From: Naegleria gruberi
Taxonomy: Eukaryota
Assembly: GCA_000004985.1 (NCBI GenBank)
Contig: GG738853.1
Length of the DNA: 64,000 nucleotides
Strand: one strand, 5' to 3'
Both the position numbers and the translations under genes were made by a program. The notes beneath the pieces were generated by a model. It was not told the origin of the DNA. It ran no database searches and was given only the letters and a program-made list of their open reading frames with translations. The first letter of the stretch is position 1; every line of letters starts with the position of its first letter. Positions 50,715-52,243 of this stretch are shown piece after piece.

Positions 50715-52243
50715 ATGGGAGCTTTTGCATCAAAGAAAGATAAAACAGATAACCCTAAAAAACCCCGAAACTCTTCAAATTCTCAACCAACAAATTCCTC
50801 AACAAGTGGTGTCAACAACAATACATCAACTTCATCTTTATCATCTAATTCTTCTACTGGACCTGTGGTAAAGAATTCACTTTCTGTTTTATTGTTGGGA
50901 ACGGGTGAAACTGGTAGGTTTTATATCTCATAGTTTAGTTTGAATAATTAATTGTTTCGTATAAATTTATTCGAAATTAGGTAAATCAACATTATTTAAA
51001 CAACTTGAATTGATTAATGGAGTGGGTATCATTAAAGAAAATGAAAAATCAATGTGGGCTACTCTAATTCATGGCAATGTAATTTCTGACATGAAAACTT
51101 TGATTGGAATTGTTGAGGAAATGGATGTTCAAGAAGTTTCGGATGAAATGCACGAATTAATTCAAGAAATATTAGAATTACCTGATCAAAATGTTACTAT
51201 TAATGAAGAATTATGTGAAAAGTTGAAGAAACTGTGGAATTATGAAGTAGTTAGGGAAGCTTATGATAATAGAGATCAAGCTTTGGATTCTGCTGAATAG
51301 TAAGTTTCTAATAATTTATAGTAATTTAGACGATTTGGGTTTTTAACATTTTCATAACATGAATTTCTCTAATTGTTGTTGACCTTTCGAATAATTATTC
51401 TTTTACAGTCTCTATAATAATATTGATAGAATTGCCAAGCCAGATTACTCACCAACAGTTGATGATGTTCTTCATTGTCGTGTAAAGACACTTGGTGTGC
51501 ATCATGTTGAACTCATGATGGATGGAAACTTTAAATTTAAATTGATTGATGTTGGTAAGTAGTTTCTATAAATGGATTTTGAGAATATTTATTGATTTGT
51601 TTACAATAATTTTTCTATAATTATTATTATAATATTTATAGGTGGTCAACGTTCTGGTAAGTTTTGATGATTTTTCTTGGTAGAATTTAACATTTAAAGA
51701 ACGAAGAAAGTGGCTTGAACGTAAGTTTTTTTATTCGAATTGGATATTTATAGTAATTTAATATTGGAAATGAATAATTGAATGATTGGAATATTGAAAT
51801 AATTTCGAATTGGATGAAAAATAGTCATGTCAGAAGTTGATGCTGTCATTTTCATGACATCTTTAGCTGAATTTGATCAAGAATGTTATGAGGAAAAAGG
51901 ATTTAAACGTGTTGTTGAATCTTTGGAAACATTTGAAAAGGTCATTAACAACAAACTCTTCCAAAAAGTTCCATTCATTCTCATGTTAAATAAGCGTGAC
52001 TTATTCGAGAGGAAGATTGCAAAGAAGAGTTTCAAGAAATATTTCCCAAATTATACAGGTGATGAAAAGAATCCCCAACAATGTATTGATTTCATTTCGA
52101 AAATGTTTTTGGGTAAATGTAAGGAACGATCAACTGATACCATTCTAGTTCAACCTCATTGTGCTATCAGTAAGGAAGAAACAGAACAAATGCTGCAACA
52201 TGCAAAGAACTTTGTAATAGGTCAATACTCAAAGAAGAAGTAG
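50715..52243 (+). CDS. Heterotrimeric G-protein alpha subunit (6 exons: 50715..50913, 50981..51299, 51409..51554, 51642..51656, 51700..51720, 51825..52243)
   Basis: Seen: MGAFASKK (Gly2 myristoylation-type start), an S/N-rich linker, the P-loop [73 protein letters not shown] (switch II split over 15-nt and 21-nt micro-exons), LMLNKRDLF (NKxD) and a C-terminal HCAI (TCAT-like). Every intron is GT(A/G)AG..AG. Confidence 0.75.

What the first reader, a model, noticed from the sequence alone, without database searches (positions are those of the whole stretch)
51409..51825. Switch II of a G-alpha gene split over 15-nt and 21-nt micro-exons
- **Seen:** the canonical motif [12 protein letters not shown] is encoded as ..DV|G (end of exon 3 at 51554), then a 15-nt exon gtggtcaacgttctg (51642..51656, GGQRS), then a 21-nt exon aacgaagaaagtggcttgaac (51700..51720, ERRKWLE), then exon 6 ([10 protein letters not shown]..).
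- **Seen:** each is flanked by GTAAG donors and TAG/AAG acceptors. Stop codons in the intervening sequence force these boundaries.
- **Inference:** micro-exons this small are rare and are a stringent test of the organism's exon-definition machinery. Standard gene predictors would miss them and fragment this gene, as the ORF track did.
Basis: seen in the sequence. Interest (0 to 1): 0.5.

Follow-up and report, generated by a model that had tools for sequence, protein, structure and literature searches.

The report
Two micro-exons in Naegleria G-alpha gene
A G-protein alpha-subunit gene of the amoeba Naegleria gruberi really does encode its catalytic "switch II" loop on two tiny exons of 15 and 21 bases; this is a neat but ordinary case of micro-exons that the public gene model already includes, and the sister species lack the three surrounding introns.

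Summary
The window is Naegleria gruberi. A six-exon chain (50715-52243) gives a clean 372-aa G-alpha protein (Pfam G-alpha, E=9e-96). Exon 4 (51642-51656, 15 nt) and exon 5 (51700-51720, 21 nt) supply GGQRS and ERRKWLE of switch II.

- **Support for the chain:** of 4467 possible GT..AG chains, this one alone restores the motif. The chance expectation is about 1e-17.
- **Already annotated:** the public partial model XP_002680500.1 contains both micro-exons, so "predictors would miss them" is wrong. With introns of 43-109 nt, intron definition is the likelier recognition mode than exon definition.
- **Orthologues:** in N. fowleri and N. lovaniensis (same upstream Myb neighbour, same introns 1 and 2) the region is one uninterrupted exon, exactly colinear.
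- **Intron 4:** it sits at the same position and phase as an intron in paralogues of N. lovaniensis and Willaertia magna.
- **Most likely history:** old introns were kept in N. gruberi and removed together from the 3' part of the gene in the fowleri/lovaniensis lineage. Gain in N. gruberi is not excluded.

No transcript evidence could be obtained. Interest is modest: a new example of a known kind.

The parts
50715..50913 (+). Exon 1 (199 nt). It runs from the ATG to the first part of the P-loop (..LLLGTGETG), residues 1-67. It begins MGAFAS, which fits an N-myristoylation-type start.
   Evidence: The N-terminus aligns with the N. fowleri and N. lovaniensis orthologues.
50914..50980 (+). Intron 1 (67 nt, GTAGGT..TTAG, phase 1). 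It is conserved in the N. fowleri and N. lovaniensis orthologues.
50981..51299 (+). Exon 2 (319 nt). It encodes the rest of the P-loop (KSTLF) and the helical domain.
51300..51408 (+). Intron 2 (109 nt, GTAAGT..ACAG, phase 2, in the Tyr codon before LYNNIDRI). This is an ancient position, shared with the Naegleria orthologues and with G-alpha genes of Balamuthia, Anaeramoeba and Rotaria.
51409..51554 (+). Exon 3 (146 nt). It encodes switch I (RVKTLG) and strand beta-3, and ends ..LIDV + G of Gly222.
51555..51641 (+). Intron 3 (87 nt, GTAAGT..ATAG, phase 1, 15% G+C). It is absent from the N. fowleri and N. lovaniensis orthologues and from all eight other G-alpha genes examined.
51642..51656 (+). 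Micro-exon 4 (15 nt, gtggtcaacgttctg). It completes Gly222 and encodes G-Q-R-S plus the first base of Glu227. It carries the catalytic Gln of switch II.
51657..51699 (+). Intron 4 (43 nt, GTAAGT..AAAG, phase 1, in the Glu codon of QRS|ERRKW). It has the same position and phase as an intron in paralogues of N. lovaniensis (L004) and Willaertia magna (L005). It is absent from the fowleri and lovaniensis orthologues.
51700..51720 (+). Micro-exon 5 (21 nt, aacgaagaaagtggcttgaac). It completes Glu227 and encodes R-R-K-W-L-E plus the first base of Leu234.
51721..51824 (+). Intron 5 (104 nt, GTAAGT..ATAG, phase 1). It contains an internal 12-nt direct repeat, TTCGAATTGGAT. It is absent from the orthologues and from all other G-alpha genes examined.
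51825..52243 (+). Exon 6 (419 nt including the TAG stop). It runs from ..[10 protein letters not shown] through NKRD and HCAI to the C-terminus GQYSKKK.

Best explanation
This is an intact, probably functional heterotrimeric G-protein alpha-subunit gene of Naegleria gruberi with six coding exons. Exons 4 (15 nt) and 5 (21 nt) are constitutive coding micro-exons. Together they carry 12 residues of the G3/switch II motif ([14 protein letters not shown]).

**Splicing (inferred).** Both micro-exons must be joined to make an active GTPase. The three surrounding introns are short (87, 43 and 104 nt), very AT-rich and have perfect GTAAGT donors. Each is therefore probably recognised as a unit by intron definition, so the tiny exons need no special exon-definition machinery. 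Retaining any one of these introns gives an early stop.

**History (inferred, about 0.6).** The three introns are old. Intron 4 at least predates the duplication that separated this gene from other heterolobosean G-alpha paralogues. They were deleted together and precisely from the 3' part of the gene in the common ancestor of N. fowleri and N. lovaniensis, most simply by recombination with a partial cDNA. The 5' introns 1 and 2 were left in place.
For: **The gene**
- Organism and gene: a 100% match to N. gruberi XP_002680500.1.
- Pfam G-alpha E=9e-96, covering 15-331 of 333 profile positions.
- Best solved relatives are G-alpha-q chains, E about 6e-54, with [12 protein letters not shown] aligned identically.

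**The exon chain**
- 1119 nt with no internal stop.
- Best of 4467 GT..AG chains.
- Chance expectation about 1e-17.
- The public model already contains both micro-exons.

**Orthologues**
- P0002 (N. fowleri, L002) and P0121 (N. lovaniensis, L001) are 70-71% identical to the window protein.
- They share the upstream Myb gene and introns 1 and 2 at identical sites.
- They encode [29 protein letters not shown] on uninterrupted DNA.
- The spliced gruberi sequence aligns to that DNA base for base, 84-89% identical, with no indel.

**Intron 4 in paralogues**
- L004 reads aat g|GTAAGT..ACAG|aa cgt and L005 reads aat g|GTATGT..TTAG|ag cgt. The window reads tct g|gtaagt..aaag|aa cga.
- By my estimate, a chance coincidence of one of 3 paralogue introns with one of 5 introns in about 1100 positions is about 1%.

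**Pattern of absence**
- The missing introns are adjacent and are the 3'-most. That is the pattern expected of cDNA-mediated loss (review PMC3488318).

**Short introns are normal in Naegleria**
- There is a 47-nt intron in the second G-alpha gene of the window, at 28970-29016.
- A 30-bp minimum intron length was used for N. fowleri (PMC8296547).
Against: - No transcript evidence could be obtained. No full-length spliced protein from an RNA assembly is in the protein collection, and the spliced protein could not be looked up.
- Polarity is not resolved. There is no outgroup orthologue: Willaertia has only about 38%-identical paralogues, and both metagenome scans found nothing.
- The positions of introns 3 and 5 were found in none of the eight other G-alpha genes examined. 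They could be N. gruberi-lineage gains.
- Intron definition is inferred from intron size, not shown.
Confidence: 0.85

Rival explanations
1. Recent intron gain. Introns 3 and 5, or all three, were inserted into switch II in the N. gruberi lineage. The uninterrupted state in N. fowleri and N. lovaniensis is then ancestral, or those species lost only intron 4.
For: - The positions of introns 3 and 5 are unique among the ten G-alpha genes compared.
- A six-exon gene is unusual in a genome that averages 1.7 exons per gene (PMC8296547).
- There is no outgroup orthologue to polarise the change.
Against: - This needs two or three independent events within 36 nt of coding sequence, against one event for concerted loss.
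- Intron 4 coincides exactly with an intron of paralogues in two other genera.
- Nothing points to an insertion mechanism. There is no introner-like similarity among the introns or elsewhere in the window. The junctions show no target-site duplication and no good MAG|R proto-splice site: TTG|GT, CTG|AA and AAC|TC.
Confidence: 0.3
2. Regulated alternative splicing. Because introns 3, 4 and 5 are all phase 1, skipping exon 4, exon 5 or both keeps the reading frame. This would yield G-alpha isoforms lacking the catalytic Gln and switch II, for example a GTPase-dead or dominant-negative form.
For: - All three skip isoforms are open and in frame.
- Exon skipping has been detected in N. gruberi transcriptomes in general (PMC6142364).
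Against: - There is no evidence for any such isoform.
- Three phase-1 introns in a row is not unusual by chance (about 1 in 9).
- The orthologues encode the region on one exon, so no such regulation is conserved.
- Intron retention, not exon skipping, dominates outside animals (PMC6142364).
Confidence: 0.07
3. A decaying pseudogene, or an assembly artefact. The three AT-rich insertions disrupt switch II and are not removed.
For: There is no transcript evidence in hand. The public model is flagged partial.
Against: - Each insertion begins exactly with GTAAGT and ends with AG.
- Removing them restores the frame and a motif that matches the orthologues at 11 of 12 residues.
- The rest of the gene is open from the Met to the stop with all G-box motifs.
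- The chance of this arrangement is about 1e-17.
Confidence: 0.03

Closest known systems
Constitutive coding micro-exons, as catalogued in plants (Yu et al. 2022, PMC8831610)
   Same: - Internal coding exons of 15 nt or less (and a second of 21 nt) that encode part of a conserved protein motif.
- Canonical GT..AG introns on both sides.
- Presence and absence vary between related lineages through micro-exon gain and loss.
- They are easy to mis-annotate.
   Different: - The organism is a heterolobosean amoeba, not a plant.
- Two micro-exons lie in tandem inside a single 12-residue catalytic motif.
- Here the public annotation did capture them.
- Whether the flanking introns are 'detained' and spliced post-transcriptionally, as reported in plants, is unknown.
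Animal neuronal micro-exons (3-27 nt, dependent on SRRM4/eMIC)
   Same: The size class is the same, and the exons are frame-preserving (symmetric).
   Different: - The animal micro-exons are alternatively spliced, tissue-regulated and lie in long introns under exon definition.
- They usually modulate surface loops.
- Here inclusion is obligatory for catalysis, the introns are 43-104 nt, and no regulation is indicated.
Metazoan G-alpha gene structures (GNAI/GNAQ/GNAS type; Lokits et al. 2018, PMC5896119)
   Same: - The protein family is the same.
- The intron in the Tyr codon before YLxxIDRI (window intron 2) is shared with a rotifer Gq-type gene.
   Different: - The animal-type gene examined has an intron just upstream of MVDVGG and none inside switch II.
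- The paper has no occurrence of 'switch II', 'microexon' or 'small exon' in its text.
Concerted, 3'-biased loss of adjacent introns by recombination with a cDNA (reviewed in PMC3488318)
   Same: - Three neighbouring introns are missing precisely in N. fowleri and N. lovaniensis.
- They are the 3'-most introns, and the two 5' introns are kept.
   Different: The direction of change is inferred, not demonstrated. Only intron 4 has independent support for being ancestral.

Membership tests
Heterotrimeric G-protein alpha subunit (Pfam PF00503) | A match to the G-alpha profile above the curated threshold, over the whole domain including the helical insert. | tested here: met
   Score 321 bits against a cut-off of 48.8, E=9e-96, covering profile positions 15-331 of 333. 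It aligns to G-alpha-q 7sq2 residues 5-303.
Heterotrimeric G-protein alpha subunit (Pfam PF00503) | The nucleotide-binding motifs: G1 GxxxxGKS/T, G2 RxxTxG (arginine finger and Thr), G3 DxxGQ, G4 NKxD and G5 CA. | tested here: met
   The motifs read GTGETGKST, RVKTLG, DVGGQ (only after the micro-exons are spliced in), NKRD and HCAI. The P-loop variant GTGETG, instead of GAGESG, is shared by all three Naegleria orthologues.
Heterotrimeric G-protein alpha subunit (Pfam PF00503) | GTP binding and hydrolysis, and coupling to G-beta-gamma and receptors. | not testable with these tools
   This needs biochemistry.
Coding micro-exon | An internal exon of 30 nt or less (the strict class is 15 nt or less), bounded by an AG acceptor and a GT donor. 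| tested here: met
   The exons are 15 nt (51642-51656) and 21 nt (51700-51720). The boundaries are ..ATAG|exon|GTAAGT and ..AAAG|exon|GTAAGT.
Coding micro-exon | Inclusion keeps the reading frame and supplies sequence that is conserved in homologues. | tested here: met
   the spliced sequence is colinear with the intron-less orthologues, and 11 of 12 residues are identical.
Coding micro-exon | Presence in the mature mRNA. | not testable with these tools
   No RNA data were reachable. The indirect support is that the public model XP_002680500.1 includes both micro-exons.
Introner / transposon-derived introns | Many near-identical intron copies, terminal repeats or target-site duplications. | tested here: not met
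   Only short AT-rich words are shared among the five introns and with the 64-kb window. No duplications are visible at the junctions. Only the window could be searched, not the whole genome.
cDNA-mediated concerted intron loss (in the N. fowleri/N. lovaniensis lineage) | Precise removal of adjacent introns, biased to the 3' part of the gene. | tested here: met
   Introns 3-5 are absent with no indel, and introns 1-2 are retained.
cDNA-mediated concerted intron loss (in the N. fowleri/N. lovaniensis lineage) | The introns were present in the common ancestor. | tested here: inconclusive
   The position and phase of intron 4 are shared with paralogues in N. lovaniensis and Willaertia. Introns 3 and 5 were found nowhere else. 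No outgroup orthologue exists in the collections searched.

The most novel reading that the evidence does not exclude
The three phase-1 introns make both micro-exons freely skippable in frame. N. gruberi might use regulated skipping, or detained-intron splicing, of the switch-II micro-exons to produce a catalytically dead or dominant-negative G-alpha, for example during the amoeba-to-flagellate transition. This would be a lineage-specific layer of control that is absent from N. fowleri. Alternatively, the cluster could record a local burst of intron gain inside a 36-nt stretch of a highly conserved motif.
Probability: 0.08. Interest if true: 0.6.

Novelty: new member of a known kind. Interest (0 to 1): 0.3.

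Why it matters
- **Annotation.** The locus is a clean, checkable case of two tandem micro-exons that are indispensable for catalysis, because the switch-II Gln lies on a 15-nt exon. The organism is an intron-poor protist. The public gene model can be extended from 277 to 372 residues.
- **Evolution.** Three neighbouring introns are present in N. gruberi and precisely absent in N. fowleri and N. lovaniensis, and one of them is shared with distant paralogues. This gives a compact example for studying concerted intron loss against intron gain in Heterolobosea. Intron 2 adds a G-alpha intron position shared by four distant eukaryotic groups: Heterolobosea, Amoebozoa, Metamonada and Metazoa.
- **Limits.** It does not reveal a new mechanism. 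Micro-exons and cDNA-mediated intron loss are both established.

Tried and rejected
- **Introner or repeat origin.** blastn-short of the five introns against each other and against the window found only short AT-rich words. The best was a 15-mer shared by introns 2 and 5. Rejected, at least within the window.
- **Structured or non-coding RNA in the introns.** An Rfam scan of 50400-52400 gave only one sub-threshold snoR79 hit (20.7 bits against a gathering score of 80, E=0.47). The fold of 51540-51840 is no more stable than shuffles (z=0.22). Rejected.
- **Outgroup orthologues.**
  - The search for related loci on metagenome contigs found nothing.
  - A degenerate EVDAVIFMT DNA pattern gave one contig, L007, which is a chance 12-residue match.
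  - No protein between 40% and 69% identity exists in the 5.8-billion-protein collection.
- **Transcript evidence.**
  - P0001 and P0002 are not on record in the contig index.
  - P0098 (an insect Gq) is not on record either.
- **Shuffle test.** I replaced it with an analytic estimate.
- **Literature.** No paper in the library links Naegleria with micro-exons of nuclear genes.

Full report
**Observation.**

- Exon 3 ends at 51554 with ..gat gtt g followed by gtaagt.
- A 15-nt segment, gtggtcaacgttctg (51642-51656), lies between ..tatag and gtaagt.
- A 21-nt segment, aacgaagaaagtggcttgaac (51700-51720), lies between ..taaag and gtaagt.
- The next exon starts at 51825, after ..aaatag.

I extended the model to the whole gene. 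Six exons (50715-50913, 50981-51299, 51409-51554, 51642-51656, 51700-51720, 51825-52243) sum to 1119 nt and translate to 372 residues without an internal stop. The five introns are 67, 109, 87, 43 and 104 nt, with 15-24% G+C. Four begin with GTAAGT and one with GTAGGT, and all end in AG. By hand count, the two micro-exons are 53% and 43% G+C. Introns 3, 4 and 5 are all phase 1.

**Is it more than chance?**

I enumerated every GT..AG chain with up to three introns of at least 30 nt between 51500 and 51860.
- There are 4467 chains, and 228 are open and in frame.
- It is the only chain that restores all twelve residues without a gap.

An analytic estimate of finding both micro-exons with their splice dinucleotides in 270 nt of this composition is about 1e-17. 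In six frames of the 64-kb window GGQRS and ERRKW each occur only here. The shorter GGQR and E[RK][RK]KW recur once, in the second G-alpha gene near 29.0 kb. A shuffle version of the test timed out.

**What it is.**

The product matches Pfam G-alpha (PF00503) at E=9e-96 over profile positions 15-331 of 333. It also matches solved G-alpha-q, -i and -13 chains at about 1e-54 to 1e-49, with [12 protein letters not shown] aligned identically to G-alpha-q. All the nucleotide-binding motifs are present: GTGETGKST, RVKTLG, DVGGQ, NKRD and HCAI.

The top database hit is N. gruberi XP_002680500.1/EFC47756.1, 'predicted protein, partial', 277 aa and 100% identical. It is an exact substring of my model, residues 53-329, and contains [26 protein letters not shown]. 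The window is therefore Naegleria gruberi. The public annotation already joins both micro-exons. What it lacks are the first 52 and last 43 residues.

**Orthologues lack the three introns.**

The next hits are N. fowleri CAG4718785.1 (P0002, 359 aa, 69% identity in the search) and, in the same cluster, N. lovaniensis XP_044548522.1 (P0121, 368 aa). I fetched their genomic loci: L001 for N. lovaniensis, and L002 and L003, which are assemblies carrying N. fowleri DNA.

Orthology rests on three points.
- Full-length identity is 70-71%.
- The upstream Myb-domain gene is conserved: window 49806-50150 matches L001 and L002 at 77-81% amino-acid identity.
- Introns 1 and 2 lie at identical positions and phases.

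In both species everything from LYS.IDRI to the stop is one exon, and [29 protein letters not shown] is read from uninterrupted DNA. The spliced N. gruberi sequence aligns to that DNA base for base, 84-89% identical, with no indel at any of the three junctions. This is strong comparative support that the N. gruberi introns are removed exactly at the proposed sites.

**Which state is ancestral?**

I mapped introns in eight further G-alpha genes, which makes eleven genes compared in all (the window gene, its two orthologues and these eight).

| Gene | Introns near switch II |
|---|---|
| N. lovaniensis paralogue P0005 (L004) | Phase-1 intron in the Glu codon of QRN|ERKKW (aat g|GTAAGT..ACAG|aa cgt) |
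| Willaertia magna paralogue P0009 (L005) | The same intron, position and phase |
| Second G-alpha gene of the window (28077-29470) | A 47-nt intron two residues before FDSGGQR; none inside switch II |
| Balamuthia (L008) | None in switch II |
| Anaeramoeba (L009) | One before VVDVGG and one after TILIYV |
| Monosiga (L006) | One after WIHSFE, phase 0 |
| Rotaria Gq-type (L010) | One before MVDVGG |

The intron in the two heterolobosean paralogues has exactly the position and phase of window intron 4 (tct g|gtaagt..aaag|aa cga). By my estimate, the chance that one of three paralogue introns hits one of five positions in about 1100 nt is about 1%. Intron 4 is therefore probably older than the duplication of these paralogues and was lost from the fowleri/lovaniensis orthologue.

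The positions of introns 3 and 5 were found nowhere else.

The missing introns are adjacent and are the three 3'-most, while the two 5' introns remain. That is the classic footprint of recombination with a partial cDNA (PMC3488318). One concerted loss in the fowleri/lovaniensis ancestor is the most parsimonious history, and I put it at about 0.6. Gain of introns 3 and 5 in the N. gruberi lineage is not excluded.

No outgroup orthologue exists in the collections.
- Nothing lies between 40% and 69% identity.
- Both metagenome scans were fruitless.

There is no sign of an insertion mechanism.
- The introns show no significant similarity to each other or to anything else in the window.
- The junctions (TTG|GT, CTG|AA, AAC|TC) show no duplications and are poor proto-splice sites.

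**How it most likely works.**

- **Shown:** the exon chain, frame closure, conservation, strong donors, and premature stops if any intron is retained (G-K-stop for intron 3).
- **Inferred from established splicing knowledge:** with introns of 43-104 nt the splice sites are paired across the intron (intron definition), so exon length is not the limiting parameter.
- **Short introns are normal here:** the neighbouring paralogue has a 47-nt intron. The N. fowleri genome study used a 30-bp minimum intron 'based on an assessment of predicted genes' (PMC8296547).
- **Unusual for the genome:** N. gruberi averages 1.7 exons per gene (same source), so a six-exon gene stands out.

Because introns 3-5 are all phase 1, skipping either or both micro-exons stays in frame. 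That allows, but in no way demonstrates, switch-II-less isoforms. No Rfam family and no unusual RNA structure lies in the region.

**Comparison with what is known.**

Micro-exons are a known class. Thousands of exons of 15 nt or less are conserved in plants, often encode motif residues and are often mis-annotated (PMC8831610). Animal neuronal micro-exons are alternatively spliced and regulated, which is a different situation.

The metazoan G-alpha gene-structure paper (PMC5896119) has no occurrence of 'switch II', 'microexon' or 'small exon' in its text. The rotifer gene I mapped has no intron inside the motif. I found no paper linking Naegleria with nuclear micro-exons.

The case is therefore a new, so far undescribed example of a known kind, and it is already implicit in the GenBank model.

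**Verdict.**

The micro-exons are real. The claims about predictors and about exon definition are not supported.
- The added value of this analysis is a complete 372-aa model, the finding that the three introns are absent from the sister species, and the shared ancestry of intron 4.
- The decisive missing piece is junction-spanning RNA reads, for example from PRJEB23822 (PMC6142364).
- Interest is 0.3.

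Noticed in passing
window 28077-29470 (+): There is a second, divergent G-alpha gene about 21 kb upstream. Pfam G-alpha matches two of its pieces (E=2.8e-10 and 2.5e-28). It has an atypical G3 motif, FDSGGQRNERKKW. A 47-nt GTAAGT..TTAG intron at 28970-29016 splits a Leu codon two residues before the Asp, and there is no intron inside switch II. Another intron appears to follow ..GGGFS at about 28474. I did not build the full gene model.
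   Followed up: partly
window 50601-52101 (sites at 50601, 50659, 50970, 51386, 51734, 51804, 52096): The palindrome TTCGAA occurs 44 times in the window against 18 +/- 3.5 expected from shuffles. Seven of the 44 lie in the 1.5-kb G-alpha locus. Four of those are inside introns 1, 2 and 5, and three of the four lie 5-17 nt upstream of a 3' splice site. This could be a splicing or branch-region signal, a regulatory motif or chance clustering. It remains unexplained.
   Followed up: partly
window 51721-51824 (intron 5): Intron 5 carries an exact 12-nt internal direct repeat, TTCGAATTGGAT (intron positions 14-25 and 84-95). Each copy is followed by an A/T-rich stretch ending in TAG. The first copy therefore creates a decoy 3' splice site near 51753. 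Using it would give a 33-nt intron and an in-frame TAA.
   Followed up: no
window 50715-50870 and 52102-52243: The public N. gruberi model XP_002680500.1 is partial, covering residues 53-329. The window supports a complete ORF, with the Met at 50715 (MGAFASKKDK, aligned to MGGIFSSMKDK in the orthologues) and a TAG stop at 52241-52243.
   Followed up: yes
window 51300-51408 (intron 2); L008, L009, L010: Intron 2 is phase 2, in the Tyr/Phe codon just before [LYF][YFL]xxIDRI. An intron lies at the same position and phase in G-alpha genes of Balamuthia (Amoebozoa), Anaeramoeba (Metamonada) and Rotaria (Metazoa). It is likely a very old eukaryotic intron position.
   Followed up: partly
window 48588-50309 (+) and 52304-53932 (-); L001 5048-7512: Synteny holds upstream and breaks downstream. 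The Myb-domain gene upstream is conserved in all three Naegleria species. Downstream, N. gruberi has an ABC-2/ABCG-type transporter on the minus strand, while N. lovaniensis has adh_short and HMGL-like genes.
   Followed up: partly
window 50895-50913 plus 50981-50990: The P-loop reads GTGETGKST in all three Naegleria orthologues, instead of the usual G-alpha GAGESGKST. It is itself split by intron 1, after GETG.
   Followed up: no
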